The notes: generated by a model not told the origin, from the sequence alone. Positions 31,004-60,388 are shown, counted from the first letter of the stretch. The stretch is DNA of 64,000 nt from Planctomycetia bacterium (GCA_037129475.1 JBAXUY010000001.1:37380-101379), one strand, 5' to 3'. Program-made: numbers and translations.

Positions 31004-31435
31004 ATGACCGTGAAAGAGTTTCGGGCCGTTCTGGCCGCCCATCCGGCCACGAAGATGCACTGGATGCTGCCGGACCGGTCGTTCGTCCCGGTCCATTACC
31101 ACATCACGGAAGTGGGGCGTGTGCAGAAGGACTTCATCGACTGCGGCGGCACGGTCCGATCCACGACCTCCTGCCTGCTCCAGATCTGGGTGGCCGACGA
31201 CAAGGATCATCGGCTCGAGACGACCACGTTGGAGAAGATCATGGATATCGCCAGTGCGGTGCTGAAGAGCGACGATCTGCCGGTCGAAGTCGAGTACGAG
31301 GAGGCAACGATCTCGCAGTATCCGGTTGCCGGTGCGGAAGTGACGCCCGCCGGTCTGTTGTTCTCGCTCGGCACCAAGCACACCGCCTGCCTCGCGCCGG
31401 AGAAGTGCGGGGTCGGGGGTGAAGGGTGCTGCTGA
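31004..31435 (+). CDS. DUF6428-like protein (ars-operon-associated, function unknown)
   Basis: 143 aa. VPVHYHITEVGRVQKDFIDCGGTVRS...QIWVADDKDHRL matches my recollection of the DUF6428 family that rides in ars operons. Cys-rich C-terminus (CLAPEKCGVGGEGCC). Confidence 0.6.
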   Translation: MTVKEFRAVLAAHPATKMHWMLPDRSFVPVHYHITEVGRVQKDFIDCGGTVRSTTSCLLQIWVADDKDHRLETTTLEKIMDIASAVLKSDDLPVEVEYEEATISQYPVAGAEVTPAGLLFSLGTKHTACLAPEKCGVGGEGCC

Positions 31436-32307: not shown

Positions 32308-32397
32308 GGCAGGGTGGCTATTCAGGAGACGGAGAACCCGCCACAACATATCCGTTTCGGGTCGGCCATGCAGGGCAGACCCGCTCGGAGCGACGCC

Positions 32398-33966: not shown

Positions 33967-34025
33967 GCGCGCCGTTTCCGGCAACGACGACCTTCTCGGG
34001 TGACGGACGGCCCGCCGACCGGTCG

Positions 34026-36368
34026 CTACGAGCCCATCTTCATGGTCCGCAGCCGCAGCGCGTTGGCCACGACCGACACCGAACTCAGGCTCATGGCGGC
34101 GGCGGCGATCATCGGGTTGAGCAGCAGGTGGCTCGAGAGCGGATAGAGCACCCCCGCCGCGATCGGCACGCCCAGCGCGTTGTAGACGAGCGCGAAGAAC
34201 AGGTTTTGGCGGATGTTGCGCATCGTGTGGCGGCTCAAGTCGATCGCCTTCACGATCCCCCGGAGGTCGCCCTTCACGAGCGTCACCCCGGCCGATTCGA
34301 TGGCGGCGTCGGAGCCGGTGCCCATGGCGATGCCGACGTCGGCCGCGGCCAGGGCCGGCGCGTCGTTGATCCCGTCGCCGGCCATCGCCACCGTGCGTCC
34401 CTCCGCCTGCAAGGCCCGGACGAGGTCGTGCTTCCCCTCCGGCTTCACTCCGGCGCGAAACTCGTCGATCCCGAGCCCGGCGGCGACGGTGCGGGCCGTC
34501 TGTTCGCTGTCGCCGGTGAGCATGATGATCCGCAGCCCGAGGTCATGGAGGCTGCGGACCGCCTCGGGTGTCGAAGCCTTGATCGGGTCCGACACCGCGA
34601 TCAGCCCGGCGAGTCGCTTGTCGATGGCCACGTGCATCACCGTGCGGCCCTGCTGCTGGAGCGCTGCGGACCGCTCGTCGAGGGCCGCCAGATCGGCCAC
34701 GTGCTCCTCGGCGAGCCAGGCCCGCTTGCCGACGAGCACCTCCCGGCCCTCGACGGTGCCCCGGGCGCCGCCGCCCGTCACGGAATCGAAGTGGGCCACC
34801 GTCGGTACCGACAGGTTTCGCGCCGTGGCCCCCGCCACGATCGCCCGGGCCAGCGGGTGCTCACTCTGCTGCTCGACGCTTGCGGCAGTCCGCAGGAGAT
34901 CCACCTCGGTCATGCCTGCGGCCGGGAGGCACTCGGTGAGCGACGGGCGGCCGGCCGTCAGCGTTCCCGTCTTGTCGACGACCACGGTGTCGACCTTCTC
35001 GAGCCGTTCGAGCACCTCGGCGTTCTTCACGAGCACGCCCTCCCGCGCCCCGCGGCCGATGCCGACCATGATCGACATCGGCGTGGCGAGCCCCAGCGCG
35101 CAGGGGCAGGCGATGATCAGCACGGCGACGGCATTGACCAGCGCCCAGGCCAGCGGCGGCTGCTCCGGCGCCGCGATCGCCCACACCAGAAACGTGACGA
35201 CGGCGATCGCCAGCACGGCGGGCACGAAATAGCCCGCCACGGCGTCGGCGACCTTCTGGATCGGCGCCCGGCTCCGCTGCGCGTCGGCCACCATGCCGAT
35301 GATCCGCGCGAGCACCGTGTCTGTGCCGACCTTGTCGGCGACCATCAGGAACGACCCCGTCTGGTTGAGCGTGCCGCCGATCACCGCATCGCCGATCCGC
35401 TTCTCCACGGGCATCGGCTCGCCGGTGATCATCGATTCCTCGACCGAGCTTCCGCCTTCCGTCAGCCGGCCGTCCACGGGGATCTTCTCGCCGGGCCGCA
35501 CCCGCAGCACGTCGCCCTGATGCACGTCGTCGAGCGGCACCTCGCGTTCCTCGCCCTGGCGGACCACCCGGGCCACGGGCGGGGCCAGCGACAAAAGTTC
35601 GCGGATGGCGGCCCCCGTGCGGTGCCGGGCCCGCAGTTCGAGCAGCTGCCCGAGCAGCACCAGCGTGATGATCACCGCCGCCGCCTCGAAATACACCGGC
35701 ACGCCGCCGTCGTGCCGGAACTGGTGCGGGATGAGCGTGGGAAACAGGACGGCGACGAGGCTGTAGAGATACGCGGCACCCGTGCCGATGGCGATCAGCG
35801 TGAACATGTTGAGGTGGCCCGTCACGAGCGACCAGAATCCCCGCTCGAAGAACGGCCAGCCGGCCCAGAGCACCACCGGCGTGGCGAGGGCCAGCTGCAG
35901 CCAGGGCTCGATCGACGGCCCCAGCCAGCGATCGACCGGCACGCCCAGCATGGGCAGCATCGAGATGAGAAACACCGGCAGCGTGAGCGTGGCGGCGATC
36001 CAAAACCTCCGGGTCATGCCGCGCAACTCGGGATCGTCGTCTTCCGTATCGAGTTGCAGGGTCTTCGGCTCCAGGTCCATGCCGCACTTCGGGCAGGCCC
36101 CGGGCCCCACCTGCTCGATCTCCGGATGCATCGGGCATGTATAGATGGCATCGGCGCGGCCGGTGGCCGGAGCGGCGGCTGGGCGGTGCGACCCGCAGCA
36201 GGACGACGCTGGCGCTGACGCTGGTAATGACGAGATGGAGAGCAACGCGTCGCCCTTGAACTTCCGGAGGCAGCCCTCGGAGCAGAAGTAGGAGGTGACG
36301 CCGTCGCGAACCGCGCTCTTGGCGGTCTTTTCATCGACGGTCATGCCGCAGATGGGATCAGTAGCCAT
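34026..36368 (-). CDS. copA: Heavy-metal (Cu+/Ag+-type) translocating P1B-type ATPase
   Basis: 780 aa. CPC in [22 protein letters not shown] and GDGINDAP. The N-terminus has a TRASH/YHS-like [11 protein letters not shown]...YFCSEGC and a [24 protein letters not shown] Cys4 module. Confidence 0.92.
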
Positions 36369-36450
36369 GGGTGCAGGGTTCCTTTTCAGAGGGCATCAGC
36401 CTACCCGAGGTGTTCGCCATGCAGGGCGGGGAGCTGGGCATGCCCGGCTC

Positions 36451-37179
36451 TCAGCCGCTCGCACTCCGACGGCGTGCGTGGCCCAGGTACATGATCTGCA
36501 CCGTGGGCAGCCGGCCGAAGGTGAAGTCGAGGCGACGGTCGAGCCCGCAGGGGCCCAACCCGACGATCGGCCCGACACTCAAGCCACGGGCGACGAGCTT
36601 GGCACGGAGTTCTGAGGGCTTGATGAATTTTGCAGGATCGTGCGTGCCCCACGGCAGCAGCCGCAGGATGCGCTCGCCCATGTGCACGATGACGAACGTC
36701 GCGAGCATCGTGCGGTTGATGGTGTCGAACAGGAACAAGCCGCCCGGCTTCAGCACGCGGGCGATCTCGTCGAGCACGCGGTCGACATCGGCGACGTGTT
36801 CCAGGACATCCACGCAGACCACGCAGTCGACGCTGCGATCGGCGAGAGGAATCGCCTCGCCGCTGCCGAGCCGATAATCGATGGCAAGCCCTTCTTCGCC
36901 GGCATGGGCCCTGGCGGCGACGACTGCTGCGTCGGTGGGGTCGACACCGATGACGGTCGCTCCGCGTTTGGCCAGCGCCTCCGACATGAAGCCGCCGCCA
37001 CACCCCAGATCGAGAACGGTCTTGCCGTGCCAGGTGCCGATGACCGTGTCAAAAACGGAAAGCCGCGCGGGCACGAGGTTGTGCAGGAGACGCAGGAACC
37101 GCTGCGACCCGTCCCACCAATTGGCGGCGTGAGTACGGTAGATGGAGAGGTCATTTCGCATCGCGTGCGTCTGAATCAC
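36451..37179 (-). CDS. Class I SAM-dependent methyltransferase, UbiG-like
   Basis: VLDLGCGGGFMSEALAKRGATVIGVD (motif I), DCVVCVDVLEHV and LKPGGLFLFDTINRT. N-terminal WWD...LH pattern as in UbiG-family O-methyltransferases. Confidence 0.8.
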   Translation of the reverse strand: MIQTHAMRNDLSIYRTHAANWWDGSQRFLRLLHNLVPARLSVFDTVIGTWHGKTVLDLGCGGGFMSEALAKRGATVIGVDPTDAAVVAARAHAGEEGLAIDYRLGSGEAIPLADRSVDCVVCVDVLEHVADVDRVLDEIARVLKPGGLFLFDTINRTMLATFVIVHMGERILRLLPWGTHDPAKFIKPSELRAKLVARGLSVGPIVGLGPCGLDRRLDFTFGRLPTVQIMYLGHARRRSASG

Positions 37180-37201
37180 TTTCCGGCCGCCGGCATGGTA
37201 C

Positions 37202-38563
37202 TCAAGGCCCCGCCTGACGCATCACGATCGCCGCATTGTGCCCGCCAAAGGCCGACGACTGCGAGACTGCCCAGACGAGCCCGGCGTCGGTCGATCGCCG
37301 GACAAAGTTCAGCGGCCGCACCGGATCCTCCAGGTTCACGCAGCCGTGCACCTTCTGATCGCGGAGCGACAAGGCGGTGATCGCGGCTTCGATCGCTCCG
37401 CTTGCACCGATGCAATGGCCGGTGAGCGACTTCGTGGCGTTGACGAGCGGCCGCGAGCCGAAGATCGTTTCGATGACGGCTGATTCCACGTCGTCGTTGA
37501 CGACGGTCCCGGTTCCATGGGCATTGACGTAGTCGACGTCGCCCGGGTCGATCCCGGCGTCGGCGAGCGACGAACCGACGGCCCGCGCCAGCTGCTGGCC
37601 GGCCGGTTCCATGATCATCATGCTGTAGGCGTCGAACGACTCGCCGTATCCGACGATCTCGGCGTAGATCCGGGCGCCGCGTCGGCGGGCATGCTGCCAC
37701 TCCTCGCAGACGAGCACCGCCGCGCCCCCTTCCGCCAGGAGAAATCCCGTGCGGTTGCGGTCGAACGGGCGGTTTGCAGCGTCCGGACGATCGACGACCG
37801 AGGCCAGCGTTCTCGCGGTGTCGAACGCCCTGAACACCCCGCCGAACGGGTCGCCCACGAACTCCGCTCCGCCGCAGAGAACCATGTCGGTGTCACCGTG
37901 GCGGATGGAGCGCAGGGCGTGGCCGACCGCCGCGGTCCCGGCGGCGCAGGCGAGCGCACACGTGGTGTTCGGCCCCCGCAGGGAATAGCGGATGCCGAGC
38001 GTGGCCGACACCGCATTGGGCATGATCATCGACGCCGCGAAGGGGTTGAACCGTTTTGGAAGGGCCGCGAGCAGCGTGTCGAGGGCAGCCGTCGCGGGAT
38101 CGGTGGCTTGCGGTTCGCTGCGGCATTCGAGCGGTTGAATCGGCGTGAGCAGGTGGCTGTTTTGGGACGTGATCAGCGTGGTGATTCCGCCCACGGCGGT
38201 GCCCATGAACACGCCCGCCCGATCACAATCGATTCCCGCCAGCTGCCAGATGCCGCGCTTCGCGTCCACCAGCGACGCCTCCAGCCCGGCGTCGGCGAGT
38301 GCCTCCCCGGCCGCGACGATCGCAAGCATGGCCGATGTGTCGAGCCGCATCGCCTCGAGCGGCGTGATGCCCGCCGCCTCGAAGTCCACGGTCGGCAGCG
38401 GCGCCCAGACGGTCGACTGAAACCCGCTCCAGCGCAGCCACTGGTCGGGAATCGGGGCGACTGCCGCCCGGCCCGCGAGGGAGGCGTCCCAGCACTCGGC
38501 TGTGGAGGTGCCCACGGGCGATACCATGCCGATGCCGGTGACCGCCACCCGCCGCCGGCTCAC
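37202..38563 (-). CDS. Beta-ketoacyl-ACP synthase (KAS I/II, FabF-like) with intact Cys-His-His triad
   Basis: 453 aa. VAVTGIGMVSPVG, TTCALACAAGTAAVG (Cys), YVNAHGTGT (His) and KSLTGHCIGASG (His). Start overlaps the ACP stop by 4 nt. Confidence 0.9.
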   Translation of the reverse strand: MSRRRVAVTGIGMVSPVGTSTAECWDASLAGRAAVAPIPDQWLRWSGFQSTVWAPLPTVDFEAAGITPLEAMRLDTSAMLAIVAAGEALADAGLEASLVDAKRGIWQLAGIDCDRAGVFMGTAVGGITTLITSQNSHLLTPIQPLECRSEPQATDPATAALDTLLAALPKRFNPFAASMIMPNAVSATLGIRYSLRGPNTTCALACAAGTAAVGHALRSIRHGDTDMVLCGGAEFVGDPFGGVFRAFDTARTLASVVDRPDAANRPFDRNRTGFLLAEGGAAVLVCEEWQHARRRGARIYAEIVGYGESFDAYSMMIMEPAGQQLARAVGSSLADAGIDPGDVDYVNAHGTGTVVNDDVESAVIETIFGSRPLVNATKSLTGHCIGASGAIEAAITALSLRDQKVHGCVNLEDPVRPLNFVRRSTDAGLVWAVSQSSAFGGHNAAIVMRQAGP

Positions 38564-38847
38564 GAGAGCCCCTGCTCACCGATCCGCAGGCTGACGTAGT
38601 CGACAACCTCCTCGACCGTGGAAAGCTGGGCGGCTTCGTCGAAGGAAATCTTGCCCTTGAACTCGCGTTCGAGCGCCATCACCAGCATGACCGCGTCGAC
38701 CGAGTCGGCACCGAGATCTTCCCGGAGCCGGCTGCCGGCCGGCACGACAGCGGATTCGAGCCCGAGCACGTCGCGGATCACCACGTCAATCCGTGCTGCC
38801 ACCGCGGCGGAGGCCGGTGATGCCGGGTCTGACACGTCGGTCTCCAA
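38560..38847 (-). CDS. Acyl carrier protein
   Basis: 95 aa. Phosphopantetheine site LREDLGADSVDAVMLVMALEREF. Confidence 0.85.
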   Translation of the reverse strand: METDVSDPASPASAAVAARIDVVIRDVLGLESAVVPAGSRLREDLGADSVDAVMLVMALEREFKGKISFDEAAQLSTVEEVVDYVSLRIGEQGLS

Positions 38848-38936
38848 GAAGTGTGGATGTCACCCGCGTCCGTGCGTCGAAGCAGTCCAGTCTAAACGCT
38901 GCGGGAACGCCAGTCGATCCGCCGACTACGGCCGTC

Positions 38937-40157
38937 TCAGACCACCCGTGCGACCATCGCCGTCGCCGTGAGGCCCGGCCCAAACGCGAGGCTGACGACC
39001 AACGTGCCCGTCGTGACGTCAGGGTTGCGCAGGATGCGATCCCAGATGTGCGGCACCGTGGCCGAACTCTTGTTGCCCCCTTCGCGGAGCGCATCCTTGC
39101 TGAGCGCGATCTGGTCCTTCGAAAGGCGGAGGCAGCTGCCGACCAAGTCGACGATCGCCGGGCCGCCGGGATGGATCACCCAGATGATGTCTCCCTTGTC
39201 GGACTGGAGGTCGAGGCCGGTGTCGCGCAGGAGGGTGCCGATGAATTCCTCTGCGTGGGCCGCGATGAGCCGCGGCACGTCGATCGAGAGCGTCATCTCG
39301 AATCGGTTGACGATCGGCCGCCAGGTCATGGCGTCGGAGGAATTCGGAATCGTGGTGTCCGCATACCGGATCACCTCGAGACCGCGCCCGGGCCGCTCCC
39401 GGAACACCTCGTCGGTGCATGCCGAATAGCGGATGAACCCGTCGGCAAACAGGCTGTCGCAGATGATGTGCTCGGCGTCGAGGTGGTCGGGGGCCACGTG
39501 GATCGAGCAGATCTCGGTGTGGGCGATGTCGACTCGCCCGCCGGCACGCGCCAGTCCGCTCCGCGCCGCTGCCAGGGAGCCGGCGGCCATCCGCACCGCG
39601 GGGAACGCACCGTAGCAGCCCTGGTGGTAGCAATGGCTGACGGTCGTCCGGAACCAACCCCTCTCGGAGACCAGTTCGTGCACCGGACTGGGCAGACGGT
39701 AGCCGGTGGTCGAGACGTGGATCAACTCGCCGGGGGCGTCGTCCGGGTCTGGATACATCTGGTCGAGCGCCGCCCGCGCGTGCCTGCGGAAGATCGCCAG
39801 CCGGTCGTCGATGTCGGCGCCACCGGCCTTGGCCAGAAACGTGCTCGTAAACGGGATCGTGGCAAAATCCAGGTCGGCGGGGTCCTTGGCCGCCTCCGCG
39901 TCCGGCAGGACCGAGATCCGCCGCGACGCGATGTGCTTGGGGGAAACGCAGTACTTCTCCCACGCCGCCCGAATCGTCCCGGCCGCCGCATCCGTCGTGC
40001 TTCGCCCGCCGCTCCCGCCATTCGACGCGTCTACGAACTCGGCGAAGCGGATCGAGATTTCACGGAGTTTGTCCTGCTTGACCGACTCGGTCAGGTAGAC
40101 CGGCCGGAAATCGGACAGCACGACACCCATGCGATCGGCGCTCACGGCGTTCTTCAT
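38937..40157 (-). CDS. Type III polyketide synthase (chalcone/stilbene synthase superfamily)
   Basis: 406 aa. Cys in CYHQGCYGAFPAVR, His in WVIHPGGPAIVD, Asn in GGNKSSATVPHIW, and C-terminal AFGPGLT. Met10 is an alternative start. Confidence 0.85.
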   Translation of the reverse strand: MKNAVSADRMGVVLSDFRPVYLTESVKQDKLREISIRFAEFVDASNGGSGGRSTTDAAAGTIRAAWEKYCVSPKHIASRRISVLPDAEAAKDPADLDFATIPFTSTFLAKAGGADIDDRLAIFRRHARAALDQMYPDPDDAPGELIHVSTTGYRLPSPVHELVSERGWFRTTVSHCYHQGCYGAFPAVRMAAGSLAAARSGLARAGGRVDIAHTEICSIHVAPDHLDAEHIICDSLFADGFIRYSACTDEVFRERPGRGLEVIRYADTTIPNSSDAMTWRPIVNRFEMTLSIDVPRLIAAHAEEFIGTLLRDTGLDLQSDKGDIIWVIHPGGPAIVDLVGSCLRLSKDQIALSKDALREGGNKSSATVPHIWDRILRNPDVTTGTLVVSLAFGPGLTATAMVARVV

Positions 40158-40483
40158 GTCCAGGCTCCATCGATCTGCCGTCGCCTCGCTGGCCGCCGCA
40201 GGCCGTCATCCGCGCCACGTTGCGACGAGGATACGCCATGTGCACGCTCGAAGCAAAAAGACCACCGCAGGGCGGCTCCAGCAGTGGCATCACTTGAAGG
40301 AGAGCAGGTCGGCCCTCAATCTCGCCTCATTGCCCCTAACGTCGGCGGCACCCGTGTTCGACTGTGTGGGGTGCGTCGACTGCATCAGACCGACGCAGGA
40401 CTCCACCAGCAGTCCGTCGGCAAGCCCCGATGCTGATGCGTGGAGAGGTCGGTCCCGGCAAGCCAATCGTGTGAAAGTAGGCC

Positions 40484-41356
40484 ATGTACCACCGGACCAT
40501 GGGTACAACACTCGTCGTCTGCAGCGTATCGCTGATGGCGGTTGCACTGCTTCCCGTGACTGCTGCCGCCGAGGCTCTCGAATCGCTCGATCTCGATGCA
40601 TTTGCCCCATTCGATTCCGGGGCCGAGGTGCCATACGAGCCCGATTCTTTCGTGCCCGGATTCGATCGTGCGGCAGTCATGCCCTCGCCCCCTTCGGGCA
40701 GATTTGACGGCGTGATTTCCGACCGACCGGCACGCCAGTTCTATCTGAGCAGCATCATCGGCGGATCATTCCTGGTCGCGACCGCCGACAACACCCCGTC
40801 GTCGATTCTCACCGCCGGCGGTGCCATGGGCATCGCATTCGATCGCCCCAACGGCCGGCTCCGCATCGAGGCCGAGGGCCGATATCGTGATCCGATCGAA
40901 CAGACGTATATCGGGTTCAACAGGGAGACGCCGCGGGTCGGCCTCGCCGCCCCAGGTCCCGTCCCGCCCAAGCCCGAACTCATCGGCACGATGCAGGCCA
41001 GATCCACTGGCGGGTGGTCGGCGATGGCCAACGTCTGGCGTGACTTTGAACTCACGGATCGCTTTGACGCCTACGGGGGTGGTGGCATCGGTGGCGCCGG
41101 CTTCGAAACCTCGTTTCAGCAGATTGATGCGGCAGAGCCGGCTCCTGTTGTCTATAAATACCTGACCGAATATGCTTGGCAGACCGGTGTCGGTGCCATC
41201 TGGAACGTCAACGACCGAGTCGCGGTCGACGTGAGCTACCGACTGTTCGGTCTCGGATGGTCGATCACGGCGAACGATCTCGCGTACGGATTTTTGCGAT
41301 CAGAGGTCCTTCTCTCGCTCCGGGTGTACGAACCATTTCGCGGACTGATTCGCTGA
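40484..41356 (+). CDS. Outer-membrane beta-barrel protein (OmpA-like/Opa-like barrel)
   Basis: Signal peptide LVVCSVSLMAVALLPVTAAAEA. Alternating-hydrophobic strands, a GGGIGGAGFE loop, and a near-terminal aromatic residue (SLRVYEPFRGLIR). Confidence 0.6.
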   Translation: MYHRTMGTTLVVCSVSLMAVALLPVTAAAEALESLDLDAFAPFDSGAEVPYEPDSFVPGFDRAAVMPSPPSGRFDGVISDRPARQFYLSSIIGGSFLVATADNTPSSILTAGGAMGIAFDRPNGRLRIEAEGRYRDPIEQTYIGFNRETPRVGLAAPGPVPPKPELIGTMQARSTGGWSAMANVWRDFELTDRFDAYGGGGIGGAGFETSFQQIDAAEPAPVVYKYLTEYAWQTGVGAIWNVNDRVAVDVSYRLFGLGWSITANDLAYGFLRSEVLLSLRVYEPFRGLIR

Positions 41357-41405
41357 TGCAGATCCTGAGCATCCCCCGTGCAGCGCCCGCGCCGTCTCCG
41401 AGGCC

Positions 41406-42299
41406 GTGGCGATGATCGTCTCGCCGTGCATGCCGCCTATGGATCTCGGTGCGAAGGCCTCGATCCGCAGCCACTATGACCTCGCGACGCCGTTCTATCG
41501 GCTGTTCTGGGGGCCGCACATCCATCACGGCCTCTGGTCGGCCGAAGACGCGGTCCGCGAGCAGCCCCACGCCTCGCCGCTGGCGGCGCAGGAAGCCCTC
41601 ACCGATGCCCTGGCCACGCTGGCGGACATCCAACCCGGTCAGCGCGTCCTCGACGTGGGCTGCGGCATGGGCGGTTCATCGATCCGGCTTGCCAGGCAGC
41701 GACACTGCGACGTGACCGGCATCACGCTCAGCGGCGTGCAGCGGCGTTGGGCCTCGATGGGAGCGTGGCGGAACGGCGTGACGAACGCGGTGCGTTTTCG
41801 TCAAGCGGATGCCGAACGAGTGACCTTCGAGGCCGCGAGTTTCGACGTCGTCTGGAGCATCGAGTGCACCGAACATCTGTTCGACAAGGCGGCGTTCTTC
41901 CGGCGGGCAGCCGGCTGGCTCCGGCCCGGCGGCCGGATGGCGATCTGTGCCTGGCTGGCGGCCGATGACGCCGATCGCCCCGGGCTGCGCGAGCAGGTGG
42001 AAGCGGTCTGCGACTCCTTCCTCTGCCCCTCGCTCGGCAGCTTCTCGGACTACACCGGCTGGATGACCGATGCGGGCCTCCAGGTGGAGCACACGGAAGA
42101 CTGGACGGCCCGCGTCGCCCGGACATGGGAACTCTGTGACGCGCGCGTGCGTCGGTTCGGTCTGCCGTGGCTGGCACGGTTGATCGACGGTCGACAGGCG
42201 ACGTTTCTCGACAACTTCAAGACGCTTCTCGACGCCTACCGCTCCGGGGCCATGCAGTACGGATGCATCGTCGCCCGGCGACCGGAAACGGCGACATGA
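41406..42299 (+). CDS. Class I SAM-dependent methyltransferase (gamma-tocopherol MT / CMAS-like)
   Basis: SHYDLATPFYRLFWGPHIHHGLW, VLDVGCGMGGSSIRLA and LRPGGRMAI. Confidence 0.8.
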   Translation: MAMIVSPCMPPMDLGAKASIRSHYDLATPFYRLFWGPHIHHGLWSAEDAVREQPHASPLAAQEALTDALATLADIQPGQRVLDVGCGMGGSSIRLARQRHCDVTGITLSGVQRRWASMGAWRNGVTNAVRFRQADAERVTFEAASFDVVWSIECTEHLFDKAAFFRRAAGWLRPGGRMAICAWLAADDADRPGLREQVEAVCDSFLCPSLGSFSDYTGWMTDAGLQVEHTEDWTARVARTWELCDARVRRFGLPWLARLIDGRQATFLDNFKTLLDAYRSGAMQYGCIVARRPETAT

Positions 42300-42348
42300 C
42301 GCAGGATCGCTCCCTCGCCACACCATCACAGCCAGGACCGTCACAGGG

Positions 42349-43140
42349 ATGGGCAGATTTTTCGGCATTGCTTTCGGGCTGGCGACGCACGTCCTGTTCG
42401 CCTTCACCGTCTGGCATCTGTTCTGGTTCCTGAAGGGGCCGCTGCCGGGTGACGCACCGACATCGTCGCTCGGGCTTGGCGCGTCGCTCGGCATCGACAC
42501 CCTGCTGGCGGTGGCGTTCGCGGCACCGCACAGCATATTCCTCCTGCCGTCGGTGAGACGCAGGCTCGTGGCGGCCGGCATCCCCGCACCGTTCTACGGC
42601 TGTTTCTACTGCGTGGTCACCTGCGCCGTGCTGCTGCTGACGATCTTTTGCTGGCAGCCCACCACCGTCGTGGCCTGGCGCTGGGTCGCCCCCTTCGACA
42701 GCGCCGTGACCGCGGCCTTCGCCGCGTCGTGGGTGGCGCTGTTCTACAGCCTGCACCTCACGGGCCTGGGGTGGCAGACCGGCTGGACGCCCTGGTGGCA
42801 CTGGGCCCGCGGTCTGCCGCAGCCGAATCGCGCGTTCATCGAACGGGGCGCCTACCGCTTCCTGCGGCATCCGGTGTACCTGAGTTTCCTGGGCCTGATC
42901 TGGTTCACGCCCCTCGTGACGTTCGATCGCGTCGTGCTGATCGCCGTGTGGTCGACCTACATCTTCGTCGGCAGCGCGCTCAAGGATGGACGACTGGTGC
43001 ACTTCATGGGCGACACGTATCGCGACTACCAGGCGCGCGTGCCGGGGTATCCGGGCGTGCGGTTCGGGCCACTGGGGCGGGTGCGGCCGCCGGTCGTGAC
43101 ATCGCGTGACGCGATCGAGGGTCGTCGCTACGTCGCGTAG
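42349..43140 (+). CDS. Integral-membrane methyltransferase, ICMT/PEMT family (SrsB/BpsB-like)
   Basis: Multiple TM segments. C-terminal FLRHPVYLSFLGLIWFTP...VWSTYIFVGSALKDGRL resembles the isoprenylcysteine carboxyl methyltransferase family SAM-binding region. Confidence 0.7.
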   Translation: MGRFFGIAFGLATHVLFAFTVWHLFWFLKGPLPGDAPTSSLGLGASLGIDTLLAVAFAAPHSIFLLPSVRRRLVAAGIPAPFYGCFYCVVTCAVLLLTIFCWQPTTVVAWRWVAPFDSAVTAAFAASWVALFYSLHLTGLGWQTGWTPWWHWARGLPQPNRAFIERGAYRFLRHPVYLSFLGLIWFTPLVTFDRVVLIAVWSTYIFVGSALKDGRLVHFMGDTYRDYQARVPGYPGVRFGPLGRVRPPVVTSRDAIEGRRYVA

Positions 43141-44384
43141 CCAAACGCTTCGGCCAAGCGGACGGTTTTCGCGTCCAACGCGAACGGCAGCCGAACCCGT
43201 TGCCAGCTCGTTCCACGGTCGGGATCGATGTCCTTGTGATCCAGGAAATGCATGTCGCCCAGCGTGCAGTGCTGCCGATCGCCGTGATGCGTGAGTCGAT
43301 CACCGTCGTAGGGGGTCAGCAATCCCGGATGAAAGTCGACACCGAACGCGTTGCAGATGGTCGACGAGGTTGTCTCGAGGTCGGTGAGCAAGTCCTCGAA
43401 TCGAATCACGCTGGTGCGGCTCTGCGGCACGTCCCGGAGAAACGTCCCGATGGTTTCGTTCATCTGCACCCAGCAGTGCTCGGCATACTTCCAGGGCGAA
43501 GGATGCCACCCGGGCCAGGACGATCCGTACAGGCGATGAAAACGCATCCGCACCAACGAATCGATGACCGCGTAGGGATGCCGAACCAGGTGAACGAAGC
43601 GGGGTTCGTGAAACCGTTCAGCGGCCGGTCGTAAAAAAGAGGCATCCGCGGCGTAGAGTGGCGACTTGTCGACCAGCAGCCTGCGTCTCGTGGCGTCGTG
43701 CAACTCGCGATAGACATCTGCCACCGGCAGGTCGGCGTTTTCACACGCCCGAATTCGTGCTCGAGCCTCCTGGTGCGAGAGTTGCCCGAGCGCCGCGACG
43801 GTGGCGACCACGCCACTGCCCATCCAGCCGAACCCATGTTCCCGAAACCACTCCGCTCGCTGCCCCATCGTCTCAAACGGCAGCAGATTCAACTCCGGCG
43901 GGGAGAAGAGCTCGGGATGACCGTGAAGCATCACACGCACCAGCGTCGACCCCGCTCGGGGCGACGACAAAACGAAGCACACATTCGACACCTTCGTGCG
44001 CGCCGCGACCGGCGTCCGCCGGGAAGGAATGTGAACCGCCGACGCGGAACTACGCCGAGGTGTCGTCCAATCCGGTTCCTCGAATTCGTTCGCGAGGTAG
44101 CCGGCCAACTCGCGCAGGCAGGTCAGGGTGGCCATTTCGCCGGGGTAGATTCGCCACCCCAACGTGTTTGTGACCGCCTGGCGAAGCACGCCGAAGAACG
44201 GTTCGATGGCCTTGGATGGATCGGTGGAATGCACCCATGAAAAGACGGATTCGCCTGTCACATCGGCGATATCGCGACCGATCAGCCCCGCCACGCTCGC
44301 CCGCAGTCGCTCCAGGATCAAACGCGAGCGCTCCGTCGGAGGGCTTCCGTTCAGCAGCGTCACGAACGCATCGACTGGTTGCAC
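43128..44384 (-). CDS. Sulfotransferase (Sulfotransfer_3, CurM/OLS-type) with about 130-aa N-terminal carrier-protein-like extension
   Basis: PAPS 5'-phosphosulfate loop VLSSPRAGSTLVRVMLHGHPELFSPPELNLLPF. The listed ORF (to 44804) overlaps cheB, so the true start must be internal. GTG at 44384 was chosen and is uncertain (first ATG is far downstream). Confidence 0.72.
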   Translation of the reverse strand: MQPVDAFVTLLNGSPPTERSRLILERLRASVAGLIGRDIADVTGESVFSWVHSTDPSKAIEPFFGVLRQAVTNTLGWRIYPGEMATLTCLRELAGYLANEFEEPDWTTPRRSSASAVHIPSRRTPVAARTKVSNVCFVLSSPRAGSTLVRVMLHGHPELFSPPELNLLPFETMGQRAEWFREHGFGWMGSGVVATVAALGQLSHQEARARIRACENADLPVADVYRELHDATRRRLLVDKSPLYAADASFLRPAAERFHEPRFVHLVRHPYAVIDSLVRMRFHRLYGSSWPGWHPSPWKYAEHCWVQMNETIGTFLRDVPQSRTSVIRFEDLLTDLETTSSTICNAFGVDFHPGLLTPYDGDRLTHHGDRQHCTLGDMHFLDHKDIDPDRGTSWQRVRLPFALDAKTVRLAEAFGYAT

Positions 44385-44524
44385 CGAATCAGCGCCTCCT
44401 GCCGCAGGAAGGGTAGGGCAGTCGACGGCACTTTCGCAACGACCGGATGGGGGCTGAGCGACGGGTGCGGCGAGGCGGAGGCAGTTTGCGGCCCGTCCGA
44501 GCCTGCCGACGCCGCCGGGCCGCC

Positions 44525-45655
44525 TTACAAGGCTGCCTGACTCGCCACGGCGCGGACGATCGCCGCGGCGATGCCGGGCAGCGGCACGACCTGCTCGGCC
44601 GATCCCAGTTCGATCGCCGCACGCGGCATCCCGAACACCACGGAGGTGGCCTCGTCCTGCGCGATCGTGCGGCCACCGGCGGCGCGAATCGCCTGCATGC
44701 CCACGGCACCGTCGCTCCCCATGCCGGTGAGCAGGGTGGCCACCGCCAGCCTGCCGGCCGACTCGGCAGCGGACCGAAAGAGCACGTCCACCGCGGGCCG
44801 GCAATGATGCACGGGGGGGGTCTCCAGCAGTCGCACGCGATACGCGCCCGCCTGCCAGGTCACGGCCAGATGGCGTTCACCGGGCGCGATCACGCACAGC
44901 CCGGGCTGCAGCGTCATGCCCTCCTCCGCCTCGCACACGCGATAGCCGCATGCCTGATCGAGCCGTTCGGCGACCACGCGGGAGAAGTAGGCCGAGATGT
45001 GCTGCACGACGGCGATCGGTGGCAGGCCTGCCGGCAACTGGGGCAGGATCGTCCGCAGCGCCTCGACGCCTCCGGTCGACGATCCGATGACCACGAGCTG
45101 CCGGGGATCGATTCGGTGCGGTGCGGCCAACGGCTGCGCGCCGCGATCGGTAGACGGCACGCCTGCCGCTGGTGGCTCGGTCGGTGGTGCCCCGGCCTCC
45201 AATGGCAATGCCGTCGTGTGCGCGTCCTGACGACGCACAAGCCCCTTCGAGGCGGCCGCAGCCTTGACGTGGTAGGCCAGCCGAGCACCGAGGCCGCCGA
45301 TCGACATCGTTCCATCGGGTTTGGCGAGGACGTCCACGGCGCCCGCCTCCATGGCATCGAGCGCCGCCTGCGACCCGGCCTGGGTGAGGGAACTCACCAC
45401 GACCACGGGCAGGGGGTGGTGCTGCATCAGGATGCGCAGGAACGTCAGGCCATTCATGCGGGGCATTTCCAAGTCGAGCGTGAGCACGTCCGGATCGAAC
45501 CGGAGGATCTTCTCGCGGGCGACGTAGGGATCGCACGCGGTGGCCACCACCTCGATCTCCGGATCGAGCGACAGGGCGTCGCTGATCGCCTTGCGGACGA
45601 GTGCCGAGTCGTCGACCACGAGCACGCGGACTTTGCGGGGTTGTTGGGTATGCAT
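44525..45655 (-). CDS. cheB: Chemotaxis response regulator protein-glutamate methylesterase
   Basis: REC domain VRVLVVDDSALVRKAI...DVLTLDLEMPRMNG. Methylesterase domain with VVIGSSTGG and VVQHI. Start taken at Met20 (45655); ATG 45712 is the alternative. Confidence 0.9.
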   Translation of the reverse strand: MHTQQPRKVRVLVVDDSALVRKAISDALSLDPEIEVVATACDPYVAREKILRFDPDVLTLDLEMPRMNGLTFLRILMQHHPLPVVVVSSLTQAGSQAALDAMEAGAVDVLAKPDGTMSIGGLGARLAYHVKAAAASKGLVRRQDAHTTALPLEAGAPPTEPPAAGVPSTDRGAQPLAAPHRIDPRQLVVIGSSTGGVEALRTILPQLPAGLPPIAVVQHISAYFSRVVAERLDQACGYRVCEAEEGMTLQPGLCVIAPGERHLAVTWQAGAYRVRLLETPPVHHCRPAVDVLFRSAAESAGRLAVATLLTGMGSDGAVGMQAIRAAGGRTIAQDEATSVVFGMPRAAIELGSAEQVVPLPGIAAAIVRAVASQAAL

Positions 45656-45681
45656 GGGTGTCACGTGCGTGTGTGGTTCGG

Positions 45682-46518
45682 TCACCTGGGCCGCCGATAG
45701 ACGCTGGGCCACTCGCCCTGCAGCGGGTGCCTCATGCCGAGCAGGCTTTCTGCATGCCCGACGAACAGGAATCCGCCCGGAGCGAGCATCGCGACCAGCC
45801 GGTCGAGGAGTTCCTGGCGCGACTCTGGATCGAAATAGATCATCGCATTGCGGCAGAAGATCACATCCTGGCCACCCGGCAGCGGATACTCGGGCTGGAA
45901 CAGGTTCACCCGCTGCACGAGCACCCGTCGCCGCAGTTCCGGCCTCACTCGGCAGAATCCCTCGCGCTCTCCGAAGCCGCGAAGGAAGTAACGCCGCAAC
46001 TGTTCAAGAGGCAGCGCGACCTTCCCGGCCTCGTAGATGCCGCTGCGGCACCGCTCCAGCATCCGGCTGGAGATGTCGGTCGCATGCACGTGCCAGGTGA
46101 CGTGCGGATGCGACCTCGCGCACTCCGCCAGCACGACGGCCAGCGAATAGGGCTCCTCGCCCGACGAGGCCGCCGCCGACCACACCTGGAGCGGTCGATC
46201 ACCGCGGCTGGCGACGACCTCGGGCAACACCCGTTCTGCCAGAAGCTGGAAGTGGGATGGCTCCCTGAAAAAATGAGTGTGGTTCGTGGTGATCAGGTCG
46301 ATGAGTCGGCCCACCTCCTCCTCGCCCGCGGCCGACGCGAGCAGCCTGCAGTAGGCGTCGAAACCGTCGAGTTGCAACGCGTGCAGGCGCTGGGCGAGCC
46401 GGCCGGAGACGAGCGCCTGTCGATCAGGCCCCAGCTGGATCCGGCTCCGTTCGTGGATGAGATTGGCCAGGTAGGCGTAGGCGTCGGGCGTGAGTCGTGG
46501 TTCCTGTGGCAGCACCAT
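45682..46518 (-). CDS. cheR: Chemotaxis protein methyltransferase
   Basis: 278 aa. TTNHTHFFREPSHF, VWSAAASSGEEPYSLA and IFCRNAMIYFD. Confidence 0.9.
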   Translation of the reverse strand: MVLPQEPRLTPDAYAYLANLIHERSRIQLGPDRQALVSGRLAQRLHALQLDGFDAYCRLLASAAGEEEVGRLIDLITTNHTHFFREPSHFQLLAERVLPEVVASRGDRPLQVWSAAASSGEEPYSLAVVLAECARSHPHVTWHVHATDISSRMLERCRSGIYEAGKVALPLEQLRRYFLRGFGEREGFCRVRPELRRRVLVQRVNLFQPEYPLPGGQDVIFCRNAMIYFDPESRQELLDRLVAMLAPGGFLFVGHAESLLGMRHPLQGEWPSVYRRPR

Positions 46519-60387: not shown

Positions 60388-60388
60388 G

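What the first reader, a model, noticed from the sequence alone, without database searches (positions are those of the whole stretch)
36451..44384. Type III PKS locus with its own ACP and ketosynthase, three phenolic-lipid-type methyltransferases, a beta-barrel OMP and a CurM-type sulfotransferase
SEEN: On the minus strand, a chalcone-synthase-like type III PKS has all three catalytic residues placed as expected (Cys in YHQGCYGAF, His in IHPGGPAIVD, Asn in GNKSSATV). An ACP (LGADSVD) follows 90 nt downstream. Its stop overlaps the start of a FabF-like ketosynthase with an intact Cys-His-His triad. A UbiG-like methyltransferase comes next. Divergently transcribed are a signal-peptide beta-barrel OMP, a gamma-tocopherol-MT/CMAS-like methyltransferase and a membrane ICMT-family methyltransferase. 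A Sulfotransfer_3 (CurM/OLS-type) sulfotransferase converges on them. ESTABLISHED: Type III PKS plus ICMT-type membrane methyltransferase pairs (SrsA/SrsB in Streptomyces griseus, BpsA/BpsB in Bacillus subtilis) make methylated alkylresorcinols or alkylpyrones. In the Azotobacter Ars system, the fatty-acyl starter is handed from a carrier protein directly to the type III PKS. Type III PKS loci in Planctomycetota have been linked to alkylresorcinols. INFERENCE: The ACP and KAS build or extend a dedicated long-chain starter that is delivered ACP-bound to the PKS. All three methyltransferases come from families that act on phenolic or prenyl lipids. The sulfotransferase would sulfate either a ring hydroxyl (sulfated alkylresorcinols exist as natural products, e.g. 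panosialins) or a beta-hydroxy intermediate. The OMP hints at an outer-membrane destination. I cannot tell from memory whether this exact ACP-KAS-ST-OMP combination has been described, so it is the best candidate here for an undescribed lipid pathway.
Basis: partly seen in the sequence, partly recalled or inferred. Interest (0 to 1): 0.82.

Follow-up and report, generated by a model that had tools for sequence, protein, structure and literature searches.

The report
Alkylresorcinol lipid cluster with own ACP–ketosynthase
An uncultured freshwater planctomycete carries a conserved gene cluster that most likely makes methylated long-chain phenolic (alkylresorcinol) lipids using an Azotobacter-type type III polyketide synthase fed by its own small carrier protein and ketosynthase, while the neighbouring sulfotransferase is probably just a neighbour.

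Summary
The PKS (38937-40157, -) is an ArsB/ArsC-type enzyme: ArsC is its best solved relative (E 1e-81, against 1e-22 for chalcone synthases). It has the Cys181/His329/Asn362 triad and Trp279 at the ArsB-W281 position that specifies resorcinols. Of 28 related loci, all from freshwater Pirellulales/Planctomycetota MAGs, 22 have the ACP and FabF-like KAS directly after the PKS, with a 4-nt ACP-stop/KAS-start overlap. The tailoring and export genes vary. A related ACP-KAS cassette also sits beside a second, only 30% identical type III PKS clade, which argues for functional coupling. The CurM-type sulfotransferase is found in 0 of 28 related loci. Its 73%-identical orthologue lies in an unrelated neighbourhood, its N-terminal carrier-like domain has lost the attachment serine, and it lies just downstream of cheB. 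I therefore read the locus as an Ars-like phenolic-lipid pathway in which a discrete type II ACP-KAS pair replaces the ArsA/ArsD type I fatty acid synthase. This is a new variant of a known kind, and the sulfated-product idea is not supported. No product has been observed. The exact role of the KAS is inferred.

The parts
38937..40157 (-). Type III PKS of the ArsB/ArsC type, predicted to be an alkylresorcinol synthase. The true start may be Met10 at 40130, because most homologues are 397 aa.
   Evidence: Pfam Chal_sti_synt_C scores 82 bits. ArsC (3VS8/3VS9) matches at E 1e-81 over residues 11-403, against 1e-22 for chalcone synthases. Cys181, His329, Asn362 and Trp279 are invariant in 38 close relatives. 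The role of this Trp comes from PMC6274091 and PMC7064976.
38560..38847 (-). Dedicated acyl carrier protein (95 aa) with the phosphopantetheine-site motif LGADSVD.
   Evidence: Pfam PP-binding scores 45 bits. The best NCBIfam ACP models score 68.4 and 63.3 bits, just under their AcpP cutoffs of 71 and 70.45. The gene follows the PKS in 22 of 28 related loci.
37202..38563 (-). FabF-like beta-ketoacyl-ACP synthase (453 aa). It has an intact Cys-His-His triad and about 39 extra residues relative to FabF. It is translationally coupled to the ACP gene by a GTGA overlap.
   Evidence: Pfam and NCBIfam hits. FabF 6OKG matches at E 5.5e-78. C206, H349, K378 and H383 are invariant in 116 family members. 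The AF2 model has pLDDT 94.1, and Foldseek finds FabF at TM 0.92. The overlap was read directly from the sequence.
36451..37179 (-). UbiG-like soluble SAM-dependent O-methyltransferase, the last gene of the PKS operon.
   Evidence: TIGR01983 scores 166.7 bits, above its 102.95 cutoff. 4KDC (UbiG) matches at E 2.9e-37 over the full length. Present in 14 of 28 related loci.
40228..40256 (-). Conserved promoter-like block (TTGCTT, 17 nt, TATCCT) in the 326-bp divergent intergenic region, pointing toward the PKS.
   Evidence: The five-locus intergenic alignment has 69% mean identity, with this block among the best conserved. The strict sigma-70 consensus scan did not call it, so it is tentative.
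40484..41356 (+). Secreted OMP-like protein (290 aa), probably a small beta-barrel. It may act as an envelope acceptor or channel for the lipid.
   Evidence: It has one N-terminal hydrophobic signal-type segment and no other. All 7 orthologues hit Pfam OMP_b-brl (best E 9.6e-7) and OmpA_membrane, all below threshold. Present in 11 of 28 related loci. The structure prediction failed.
41406..42299 (+). CMAS-family class I SAM methyltransferase (RebM/TleD/MitM-like). Whether it acts as an O- or a C-methyltransferase is not resolved.
   Evidence: Pfam CMAS scores 81 bits. 3BUS matches at E 1.2e-33 and 5GM1 at 4.4e-26. Present in 7 of 28 related loci. In the other loci a FAD monooxygenase plus a UbiE-like MT take its place.
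42349..43140 (+). Polytopic membrane methyltransferase of the ICMT/MddA superfamily.
   Evidence: NCBIfam MddA scores 84 bits over the full length, well below its 270 cutoff. Pfam ICMT scores 19.2 bits against a cutoff of 24. 4A2N (ICMT) matches at E 0.011 on the C-terminal SAM-binding region. There are four or more hydrophobic segments and an RHPxY motif. Present in 10 of 28 related loci.
43128..44384 (-). CurM-type sulfotransferase with a degenerate N-terminal carrier-like domain. It is an adjacent gene and probably not part of the pathway.
   Evidence: Sulfotransfer_3 scores 82.8 bits. It is 38% identical to the CurM ST. The DSL serine is not conserved in this subfamily. It is found in 0 of 28 related loci. 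The 73% orthologue P0124 lies in an unrelated context, and so does a 38% homologue. It starts 140 nt downstream of cheB with its own AGGAGG-GTG start.

Best explanation
The locus 36451-43140 is a biosynthetic cluster for a methylated long-chain 5-alkylresorcinol (phenolic lipid) destined for the cell envelope.

Shown:
- The PKS is an ArsB/ArsC-family type III PKS with an intact Cys-His-Asn triad.
- It has the tryptophan that directs aldol (resorcinol) rather than lactone (pyrone) cyclisation.
- It is almost always followed by a dedicated ACP and a translationally coupled FabF-type condensing enzyme.

Inferred:
- The ACP-KAS pair takes the place of the Azotobacter type I fatty acid synthase ArsA/ArsD.
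- The KAS condenses an acyl primer from the general pool with malonyl on the dedicated ACP. This may be a single condensation, or several rounds in which housekeeping FabG/FabZ/FabI reduce the chain and so lengthen it.
- The resulting acyl-ACP is handed directly to the PKS cysteine.
- The PKS adds malonyl-CoA units, cyclises and decarboxylates to give the alkylresorcinol.
- The UbiG-like MT, the CMAS-family MT and the membrane ICMT/MddA-like MT then methylate ring hydroxyls and/or a ring or chain carbon.
- The secreted OMP-like protein helps place the lipid in the outer membrane. MmpL transporters may do this job in sister loci.

The sulfotransferase next door is not part of the conserved pathway.
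For: - PKS assignment: (ArsC E 1e-81; the window residue aligns with the Trp of the ArsC G284W structure 3VS9). (triad and Trp invariant in 38 relatives). (literature on W281/G284 and on direct ACP-to-ArsB/C transfer).
- Conserved PKS-ACP-KAS: (22 of 28 loci, PKS identity 68-94%). GTGA coupling.
- Independent recurrence: KAS homologues at 57-59% and 49-51% identity, each preceded by an ACP, lie beside a canonical 359-aa type III PKS that is only 30% identical to the window PKS. Some of these loci also carry UbiE-like MTs.
- Relatives of the PKS at about 40% identity sit in true Ars-like clusters: a type I FAS, then the PKS, then a DH/PPTase. Another sits after a FAAL-ACP. Carrier-protein priming is therefore the rule in this PKS family.
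- KAS competence: triad, Lys378 and FabF fold.
- Tailoring and export genes recur with the cluster.
- Flanking genes are unrelated: a P-type ATPase on one side and the che operon on the other.
Against: - No product has been observed, and no enzyme in this clade has been characterised.
- The cluster has no ketoreductase, dehydratase, enoyl reductase, malonyl transferase or PPTase. Nor does the rest of the 64-kb window. Full elongation cycles would need housekeeping enzymes to accept the dedicated ACP, which is untested.
- Four related loci (L016, L018, L023, L026) lack ACP-KAS next to the PKS, so the pair is not strictly obligatory in cis.
- The same ACP-KAS family also occurs without any PKS, with a radical SAM enzyme and a crotonase or with a hydrolase. 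It is therefore a general-purpose module, and its chemistry here cannot be read from homology.
- The regiochemistry of the methyltransferases and the fold of the OMP-like protein are not established.
Confidence: 0.62

Rival explanations
1. The sulfotransferase is a working member of the pathway, and the end product is a sulfated, methylated alkylresorcinol or a sulfated beta-hydroxy intermediate.
For: - The ST lies next to the cluster, and its stop overlaps the end of the membrane MT gene.
- It is a CurM-type ST, a kind that acts on ACP-bound beta-hydroxyacyl chains.
- More distant sulfotransferases sit immediately after an ArsB-like PKS in a Polyangiaceae genome and within 9 kb of one in Methylocaldum. 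Sulfation of this lipid class elsewhere is therefore plausible.
Against: - The ST is absent from all 28 related loci at E 1e-3, including the 93%-identical sister locus L005.
- The one close orthologue whose neighbourhood I examined, P0124 at 73% identity, lies beside a sulfatase and hypothetical genes in four overlapping contigs. A 38% homologue follows dnaJ. Neither has a PKS nearby.
- The STs linked to a PKS in other phyla belong to a different subfamily, with only about 30% identity over 135 residues.
- The ST is on the che-operon strand, 140 nt after cheB.
- Its carrier-like domain lacks the attachment serine.
- There is no TE or KR partner and no PAPS synthesis gene in the window.
Confidence: 0.08
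2. The real end product is an alkyl-benzoquinone or quinol, a 'polyketide quinone' that acts as a membrane electron carrier like the mycobacterial and Streptomyces PkQ and Srs quinones. In this genome the ring hydroxylase would be encoded elsewhere.
For: - Sister loci replace the CMAS-type MT with a UbiH-like FAD monooxygenase plus a UbiE-like MT, alongside the UbiG-like and membrane MTs. That is a ubiquinone-style set of ring-decorating enzymes.
- In L002 and L003 the cluster sits next to cbb3 oxidase genes.
- MT1 scores above the UbiG equivalog cutoff.
- PkQ operons consisting of a type III PKS, an MT and an oxidoreductase are an established precedent (PMC9927152).
Against: - The cluster contains no monooxygenase, and tblastn with the sister-locus FAD monooxygenase finds nothing anywhere in the 64-kb window at E 1e-6. 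Pfam scans of the other large ORFs found two P450s but no UbiH-type enzyme.
- MmpL exporters and a secreted OMP-like protein point to export rather than to an inner-membrane redox pool.
- The cbb3 adjacency rests on two near-identical contigs.
Confidence: 0.15
3. ACP-KAS and the PKS are neighbours that work in separate pathways. The ACP-KAS pair would make an unrelated specialised fatty acid, and the PKS would be primed by ordinary acyl-CoA, as the characterised planctomycetal enzymes appear to be.
For: - The same ACP-KAS family occurs without a PKS in other clusters.
- Four related PKS loci lack it.
- Characterised planctomycetal type III PKSs made alkylresorcinols in C. glutamicum without any partner (PMC10896814).
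- ArsB and ArsC accept acyl-CoA in vitro.
Against: - The fixed order PKS-ACP-KAS holds over a 68-94% range of PKS identity.
- The cassette was recruited independently next to a second type III PKS clade.
- Every other branch of this PKS family examined is physically paired with a carrier-protein-bearing loader.
Confidence: 0.1

Closest known systems
Azotobacter vinelandii Ars system (ArsA/ArsD type I fatty acid synthase plus ArsB/ArsC type III PKSs), which makes cyst alkylresorcinols and alkylpyrones
   Same: - The PKS is by far closest to ArsC among solved structures (E 1e-81).
- It has the ArsB-type Trp at the position that decides cyclisation.
- The family is physically linked to a carrier-protein loader.
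- The predicted product class, long-chain alkylresorcinol envelope lipids, is the same.
   Different: - There is no type I FAS and no DH/PPTase protein. A 95-aa discrete ACP and a FabF-like KAS stand in their place.
- There is one PKS rather than a resorcinol/pyrone pair.
- There are three methyltransferases and an OMP-like protein, none of which is part of ars.
- The organisms are uncultured freshwater Pirellulales, not a cyst-forming gammaproteobacterium.
SrsABC (Streptomyces griseus), PkqABC (mycobacteria, Streptomyces), HidABC (cyanobacteria) and the planctomycetal MT-oxidoreductase-PKS operon (PMC10896814)
   Same: All combine a type III PKS that makes an alkylresorcinol with a membrane ICMT-superfamily methyltransferase. 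Sister loci of the window cluster also carry a FAD monooxygenase, as these operons do.
   Different: - The PKS belongs to a different clade. The canonical 359-aa clade is only 30% identical to it.
- Those operons have no ACP or KAS.
- The window locus has no oxidoreductase.
- The membrane MT here is 263 aa and resembles MddA. Its matches to ICMT are below threshold.
Dedicated ACP plus KAS pairs that divert fatty acid synthesis: NodF/NodE and AcpXL/FabF-XL in rhizobia, AcpM/KasA-KasB in mycobacteria (cited from my own knowledge)
   Same: In each case a small specialised ACP is encoded next to a FabF-type condensing enzyme with an intact triad, and the reductive steps are borrowed from housekeeping FAS II. 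This is the logic I propose here.
   Different: Those pairs feed acyltransferases or the mycolate machinery, not a type III PKS. The KAS here belongs to a separate family with about 39 inserted residues. No orthology to NodE or KasA was shown.
CurM/OLS sulfotransferase-thioesterase off-loading module
   Same: The neighbouring ST is 38% identical to the CurM ST domain. Like it, the ST is preceded by a carrier-protein-like domain.
   Different: - It is a stand-alone protein with no TE.
- The carrier-like domain has lost the serine.
- It is not conserved with the cluster (0 of 28 loci).

Membership tests
Type III polyketide synthase (chalcone synthase superfamily) | Cys-His-Asn catalytic triad in the thiolase fold | tested here: met
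   Cys181, His329 and Asn362 align with the ArsC triad and are invariant in 116 homologues. Pfam Chal_sti_synt_C scores 82 bits against a cutoff of 27.
ArsB/ArsC-type alkylresorcinol/alkylpyrone synthases | Specific sequence relationship to ArsB/ArsC rather than to other type III PKSs | tested here: met
   3VS8/3VS9 (ArsC) match at E 7e-80 to 1e-81 over residues 11-403. The next solved type III PKS matches at E 2.8e-22.
ArsB/ArsC-type alkylresorcinol/alkylpyrone synthases | Residue at ArsB-281/ArsC-284: Trp gives a resorcinol, Gly or Leu gives a pyrone | tested here: met
   Trp279 aligns with the Trp of the ArsC G284W structure and is invariant in 38 close relatives. The rule itself is taken from PMC6274091 and PMC7064976. 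The product was not measured.
ArsB/ArsC-type alkylresorcinol/alkylpyrone synthases | Partner type I fatty acid synthase (ArsA) and DH/PPTase (ArsD) in the operon | tested here: not met
   Neither is in the window or in the 28 related loci. Both are present next to the roughly 40% homologues in Methylocaldum and Pseudoduganella.
ArsB/ArsC-type alkylresorcinol/alkylpyrone synthases | Direct transfer of the starter acyl group from a carrier protein to the PKS | not testable with these tools
   Only genomic linkage to an ACP can be shown. An acyl-transfer assay is needed.
Beta-ketoacyl-ACP synthase II (FabF) | Cys-His-His triad plus the catalytic Lys, in the FabF fold | tested here: met
   C206, H349, H383 and K378 are invariant. 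The AF2 model has pLDDT 94.1, and Foldseek gives TM 0.92 to P. aeruginosa and E. coli FabF.
Beta-ketoacyl-ACP synthase II (FabF) | Score above the curated FabF equivalog cutoff, i.e. a housekeeping orthologue | tested here: not met
   TIGR03150 scores 340.4 bits against a cutoff of 493.75, and the match is split by an insertion of about 39 residues. This is a paralogous family.
Acyl carrier protein | PP-binding domain with the DSx serine | tested here: met
   Pfam PF00550 scores 45.3 bits against a cutoff of 20.8. The LGADSVD motif is present. The protein falls just below the AcpP model cutoffs, at 68.4 bits against 71.
UbiG (ubiquinone O-methyltransferase) | Score above the TIGR01983 equivalog cutoff | tested here: met
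   166.7 bits against a cutoff of 102.95. 4KDC matches at E 2.9e-37.
UbiG (ubiquinone O-methyltransferase) | Acts in a ubiquinone pathway, on polyprenyl-phenol substrates | not tested
   No other ubi genes were found in the window. Its position as the last gene of the PKS operon in 14 loci points to a phenolic-lipid substrate instead. This is inference.
ICMT-family membrane methyltransferases (SrsB/BpsB type) | Significant match to the ICMT domain, and a polytopic membrane protein | tested here: inconclusive
   Pfam ICMT scores 19.2 bits, below the cutoff of 24. 4A2N matches at E 0.011. NCBIfam MddA scores 84 bits over the full length, below its cutoff of 270. There are four or more hydrophobic segments and an RHPxY motif.
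SrsABC/PkqABC/HidABC-type operon | FAD oxidoreductase or hydroxylase encoded with the PKS and the MT | tested here: not met
   None in the window cluster. One is present in sister loci L002, L003, L009, L013, L019 and L023.
CurM/OLS-type sulfotransferase module | Sulfotransfer_3 domain related to the CurM ST | tested here: met
   82.8 bits against a cutoff of 27. It is 38% identical to the CurM ST chain. The PSB-loop motif SSPRAGSTL is invariant.
CurM/OLS-type sulfotransferase module | Functional upstream ACP and downstream thioesterase | tested here: not met
   The N-terminal domain aligns with the ACPs of ACP-ST homologues, but the DSL serine is not conserved. There is no PP-binding hit and no TE domain.
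Membership of the ST in this gene cluster | Co-occurrence with the PKS in related genomes | tested here: not met
   0 of 28 loci at E 1e-3. The 73% orthologue examined lies in an unrelated context, and so does a 38% homologue.
Outer-membrane beta-barrel protein | Signal peptide plus a beta-barrel domain | tested here: inconclusive
   A signal-type N-terminus is present. OMP_b-brl and OmpA_membrane hits appear in all 7 orthologues but fall below the gathering score. The AF2 single-sequence model was unusable, with pLDDT 29. A profile search of the PDB found no hit.

The most novel reading that the evidence does not exclude
A translationally coupled ACP plus FabF-like KAS cassette may be a general 'type II priming module' for bacterial type III PKSs. 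It has been recruited independently by two PKS clades that are only 30% identical.

In the Pirellulales family it would feed a pathway whose full version makes a ubiquinone-like alkyl-benzoquinone. That full version has a FAD monooxygenase plus UbiE-like, UbiG-like and membrane methyltransferases, and sits beside cbb3 oxidase genes. The product would be a polyketide electron carrier in a phylum otherwise known for menaquinone. The window locus would be a non-hydroxylated, methyl-ether variant of that pathway.
Probability: 0.2. Interest if true: 0.7.

Novelty: new variant of a known kind. Interest (0 to 1): 0.5.

Why it matters
Known ways of feeding a long acyl chain to a type III PKS are acyl-CoA, a type I FAS or PKS carrier domain (Ars, Steely, Cyl), housekeeping acyl-ACP (Gcs, HidC) and FAAL-ACP loaders. 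A dedicated discrete ACP plus FabF-type ketosynthase would add a type II/type III hybrid to that list.

The cluster comes with a clear, testable prediction. Co-expressing ACP-KAS should change the yield or alkyl chain length of the resorcinol product.

It also points to a phenolic-lipid family that is widespread in abundant but uncultured freshwater Pirellulales (Lake Mendota, Lake Zurich, Rimov, Lac Pavin and other MAGs) and that surveys of cultured planctomycetes would have missed. The mix-and-match tailoring sets across sister loci form a natural series for working out what these lipids do, whether as envelope lipids or as redox carriers.

Separately, dropping the sulfotransferase from the cluster prevents a misleading 'sulfated alkylresorcinol' annotation.

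Tried and rejected
- Exact-sequence look-ups found nothing on record for the window PKS or for the 100%-identical ST entry P0121. The source record could not be retrieved. Its name is known only: 'MAG: sulfotransferase [Planctomycetia bacterium]', on a 124,920-bp contig.
- The AF2 single-sequence model of the OMP-like protein was unusable, with pLDDT 29. No homologue alignment was admissible for that tool. A profile search of the PDB with 7 orthologues gave nothing meaningful.
- No Rfam family reached its gathering score in 33000-46000. The strict sigma-70 scan found no promoter in 36000-45000, and terminator-like hits were not above the shuffle expectation.
- I asked whether the STs next to ArsB-like PKSs in Polyangiaceae and Methylocaldum are orthologues of the window ST. 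They are not: about 30% identity over 135 residues.
- I asked whether the 201-aa and 272-aa hypothetical proteins in the second PKS-clade loci are SrsB-like or OMP-like counterparts. No similarity was found.
- I looked for FAS II reductive genes, a PPTase, FabD and PAPS synthesis genes elsewhere in the window. None were found.
[quoted passage not shown] The library is incomplete, so this is absence of evidence only.
- I considered and rejected the idea that the KAS is a decarboxylating KS (a Cys-to-Ser/Gln type, as in beta-branching cassettes). The active-site Cys is invariant.

Full report
**1. Observation**

The region 36451-44384 holds eight open reading frames whose frames are supported by third-position GC.

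| Gene | Coordinates | Strand |
|---|---|---|
| UbiG-like methyltransferase (MT1) | 36451-37179 | - |
| FabF-like ketosynthase (KAS) | 37202-38563 | - |
| Acyl carrier protein (ACP) | 38560-38847 | - |
| Type III PKS | 38937-40157 | - |
| Secreted OMP-like protein | 40484-41356 | + |
| CMAS-family methyltransferase (MT2) | 41406-42299 | + |
| Polytopic membrane methyltransferase | 42349-43140 | + |
| Sulfotransfer_3 protein (ST) | 43128-44384 | - |

- The Pfam and NCBIfam assignments are strong for six of the eight proteins.
- The OMP-like protein and the ICMT-like protein match their families only below threshold.
- The ACP stop and the KAS start overlap as GTGA. The ST has its own AGGAGG-spaced GTG start.

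**2. Boundaries**

- To the left of MT1 lies a heavy-metal P-type ATPase (34026-36368, -).
- To the right of the ST lies a chemotaxis operon on the minus strand: cheB at 44525-45712, then cheR, an MCP gene, cheW and cheA.
- The ST therefore sits 140 nt downstream of cheB, on the che strand, and converges on the membrane MT gene.
- The rest of the 64-kb window encodes unrelated metabolism. It has no FAS II reductive genes, no PPTase and no PAPS synthesis genes.

**3. What the PKS is**

- Among solved structures the PKS matches Azotobacter vinelandii ArsC (3VS8/3VS9) at E 1e-81 over nearly its whole length. Every other type III PKS scores about 1e-22.
- Cys181, His329 and Asn362 align with the ArsC triad.
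- Trp279 aligns with the Trp of the ArsC G284W mutant. In the Ars enzymes this residue decides between resorcinol (ArsB Trp281) and pyrone (ArsC Gly284) (PMC6274091 and PMC7064976).
- The triad and the Trp are invariant in 38 close relatives. More distant homologues split between Trp and Leu at this position.
- ArsB and ArsC are also the textbook case of a type III PKS that receives its starter directly from a carrier domain.

**4. Who has it, and what travels with it**

- Close homologues (66-94% identity) exist only in metagenomes and MAGs. The next homologues drop to about 40% identity.
- A scan of GTDB species representatives returned 22 loci. All are from freshwater Planctomycetota or Pirellulales MAGs from Lake Mendota, Lake Zurich, Rimov, Lac Pavin, Loclat and others.
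- I mapped the window proteins onto these loci, the contigs, and two metagenome loci.

| Gene | Loci with it (of 28) |
|---|---|
| ACP and KAS directly after the PKS | 22 |
| UbiG-like MT | 14 |
| Membrane MT | 10 |
| CMAS-type MT | 7 |
| OMP-like gene | 11 |
| FAD monooxygenase plus UbiE-like MT (alternative module) | 6 |
| MmpL transporter | 7 |
| Sulfotransferase (even at E 1e-3) | 0 |

- The loci without ACP-KAS beside the PKS are L016, L018, L023 and L026. L026 is the continuation of L020.
- Some of the 28 loci are duplicate or near-identical contigs (for example L004 and L008, and L002 and L003), so the counts slightly overstate independent observations.
- The core of the cluster is therefore PKS-ACP-KAS. 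Tailoring and export genes are interchangeable.
- The divergent intergenic region is itself conserved. It contains a promoter-like TTGCTT-17-TATCCT block, which the strict consensus scan did not call.

**5. The ACP-KAS pair**

- The KAS has the FabF fold. The AF2 model from 116 sequences has pLDDT 94.1, and Foldseek gives TM 0.92 to FabF structures.
- Its Cys-His-His-Lys catalytic set is invariant.
- It falls well below the FabF equivalog cutoff.
- It carries about 39 extra residues: a beta-hairpin at 96-108 and a helix-loop-helix at 127-166. These lie just before the K170/R171 loop. By my own knowledge of FabF, this loop corresponds to part of the ACP-docking surface, so that placement is inference.
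- The KAS belongs to a broad, distinct family that is usually preceded by an ACP gene. The 4-nt overlap is seen in the window and in the called genes of loci L035-L037 and L004.

A metagenome scan with this family gave three kinds of neighbourhood (mapped):

- KAS at 57-59% identity (439 aa): ACP-KAS lies divergent from a canonical 359-aa type III PKS in a dozen loci. That PKS is only 30% identical to the window PKS.
- KAS at 49-51% identity: four loci again pair the cassette with that second PKS clade, three of them with UbiE-like MTs as well.
- KAS at 44-49% identity: the cassette sits in a FadL, radical-SAM, ACP, KAS, crotonase cluster. In one genome it follows an alpha/beta hydrolase.

Recruitment next to two unrelated type III PKS clades is the strongest evidence that the pair works with the PKS and does not merely sit beside it.

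**6. The wider PKS family**

- The roughly 40% homologues in Methylocaldum and Pseudoduganella lie in true Ars-like operons. These hold an ArsA-like type I FAS of about 2,510 aa, the PKS, an ArsD-like DH/PPTase, an ABC transporter, a LolA-like protein and a glycosyltransferase.
- A Polyangiaceae homologue follows a FAAL-ACP loader.
- Every branch examined therefore has a carrier-protein loader.
- In the Pirellulales branch the loader is a discrete ACP with a type II ketosynthase.

**7. The sulfotransferase**

- It is a genuine CurM-type ST. It is 38% identical to the CurM ST chain, and the PAPS-loop motif is invariant.
- About 130 N-terminal residues align with the ACP of ACP-ST didomain homologues. 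The DSL serine is not conserved in this subfamily, so the domain is a degenerate carrier.
- Orthologues at 65-75% identity exist. The one whose neighbourhood I examined, P0124 at 73%, lies next to a sulfatase and hypothetical genes with no PKS nearby. A 38% homologue follows dnaJ.
- Together with 0 of 28 co-occurrence and its position after cheB, this makes the ST a neighbour and not a pathway member.
- The sulfotransferases next to ArsB-like PKSs in other phyla belong to a different subfamily. They show that sulfated phenolic lipids may exist elsewhere, but they do not rescue the link here.

**8. Tailoring enzymes**

- MT1 is UbiG-like over its full length.
- MT2's nearest solved relatives are RebM (3BUS), TleD (5GM1) and MitM. 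O- versus C-methylation cannot be decided from this.
- The membrane MT has at least four hydrophobic segments and an RHPxY motif. It shows weak ICMT and full-length MddA similarity.
- The OMP-like protein has only an N-terminal signal-type segment. All seven orthologues give consistent but sub-threshold OMP_b-brl and OmpA-TM matches.

**9. Mechanism**

Shown:
- An ArsB-type, Trp-bearing type III PKS.
- A catalytically complete condensing enzyme.
- A dedicated ACP with the attachment serine.
- Conserved linkage and translational coupling of ACP and KAS.

Inferred:
- The KAS moves an acyl primer onto the dedicated ACP by condensing it with malonyl-ACP.
- This happens either once, giving a 3-oxoacyl-ACP starter, or repeatedly, with housekeeping FabG/FabZ/FabI reducing each round and so lengthening the chain. 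The second route parallels ArsA, NodFE and AcpM/KasA.
- The PKS takes the acyl-ACP and adds two or three malonyl-CoA units. It then performs a C2-C7 aldol cyclisation with decarboxylation to give a 5-alkylresorcinol.
- The MTs add methyl groups.
- The product goes to the envelope.

I put about 0.6 on this overall picture. I put much less on either version of the KAS role.

**10. Rival explanations**

- A polyketide-quinone end product is suggested by the monooxygenase/UbiE/UbiG-type sets in sister loci and by the cbb3 adjacency in L002 and L003 (precedent PMC9927152). Nothing in the window supports it.
- Independent pathways for ACP-KAS and the PKS is argued against by the double recruitment in section 5.

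**11. Novelty**

- The published planctomycetal type III PKS cluster is MT-oxidoreductase-PKS, found in cultured strains, and that paper mentions ACP only generically.
- Reviews and genome-mining papers that I searched describe type I FAS, type I PKS, FAAL-ACP and housekeeping-ACP priming. None describes a discrete ACP plus FabF-like KAS operon partner.
- Within the limits of that library, this is a new variant of a known kind of system, the Ars-type phenolic-lipid cluster.
- It is of moderate interest.

Noticed in passing
L035:6438-9320 (also L036, L041, L043-L049, L051, L103); L050, L062, L071, L087: A homologous ACP-KAS cassette lies next to a different, canonical 359-aa type III PKS clade that is only 30% identical to the window PKS. 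The KAS is 57-59% or 49-51% identical to the window KAS, and in L035/L036 the called ACP and KAS genes show the same 4-nt overlap. Several of these loci also carry UbiE-like methyltransferases. This suggests a general type II priming module for type III PKSs.
   Followed up: partly
L085:3217-9650, L075:5061-8362, L056, L064, L079, L099: More distant members of the same KAS family (44-49% identity) sit in a recurring cluster with no PKS: a FadL/TodX outer-membrane channel, a radical SAM enzyme of about 510 aa, an ACP, the KAS and an enoyl-CoA hydratase. I could not place this lipid pathway.
   Followed up: partly
L027:2390-21224 (Methylocaldum-type), L028:2425-19339 (Pseudoduganella lurida), L029:7896-12391 (Polyangiaceae MAG): Homologues of the PKS at about 40% identity lie in full Ars-like operons: a type I FAS, the PKS, a DH/PPTase, a MacB-type ABC transporter, a LolA-like protein and a glycosyltransferase. 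L027 also has a sulfotransferase about 9 kb away. In the myxobacterial MAG a FAAL-ACP, the PKS and a sulfotransferase sit back to back. Sulfated or glycosylated phenolic lipids may exist in these lineages.
   Followed up: partly
window 43128-44384 (-); homologues P0122-P0131: This is a stand-alone planctomycetal subfamily of CurM-type sulfotransferases. Its N-terminal domain aligns with the ACP of ACP-ST didomain proteins but has lost the phosphopantetheine serine. The substrate is unknown. The one close orthologue whose neighbourhood I examined (P0124, 73% identical) sits beside a sulfatase.
   Followed up: partly
L002:16096-21194 and L003:7694-12792: In these sister loci the PKS cluster, which here includes a FAD monooxygenase and UbiE-like and other MTs, is followed directly by a THAP4/nitrobindin-like haem-binding protein, a cytochrome c gene and cbb3-type oxidase genes (COX1, FixO). 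This hints at a respiratory link for the quinone-type variant.
   Followed up: no
L007:12977-13181: In this related MAG the UbiG-like MT downstream of the KAS survives only as two short fragments (query residues 1-26 and 115-158). It is probably a decayed gene, which shows how readily the tailoring genes are lost.
   Followed up: no
window 40261-40276 (-): The window carries a 14-nt insertion, absent from four sister loci, just upstream of the conserved promoter-like block. It forms a short GC-rich hairpin followed by a T run.
   Followed up: no
window 58374-61837 (-) and 2575-3825 (+): A GT1-family (EryCIII-like) glycosyltransferase lies next to a cytochrome P450 at 58374-61837. A second P450 sits beside an SDR and an epimerase near the window start. 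These may be small tailoring or natural-product loci unrelated to the finding.
   Followed up: no
window 31864-33966 (+) and 29764-31435 (+): An unusual fusion of an Acyl_transf_3 membrane acyltransferase domain with ankyrin repeats (700 aa) lies upstream of the copper ATPase. Next to it are an aquaporin (MIP) gene and a DUF6428 gene.
   Followed up: no
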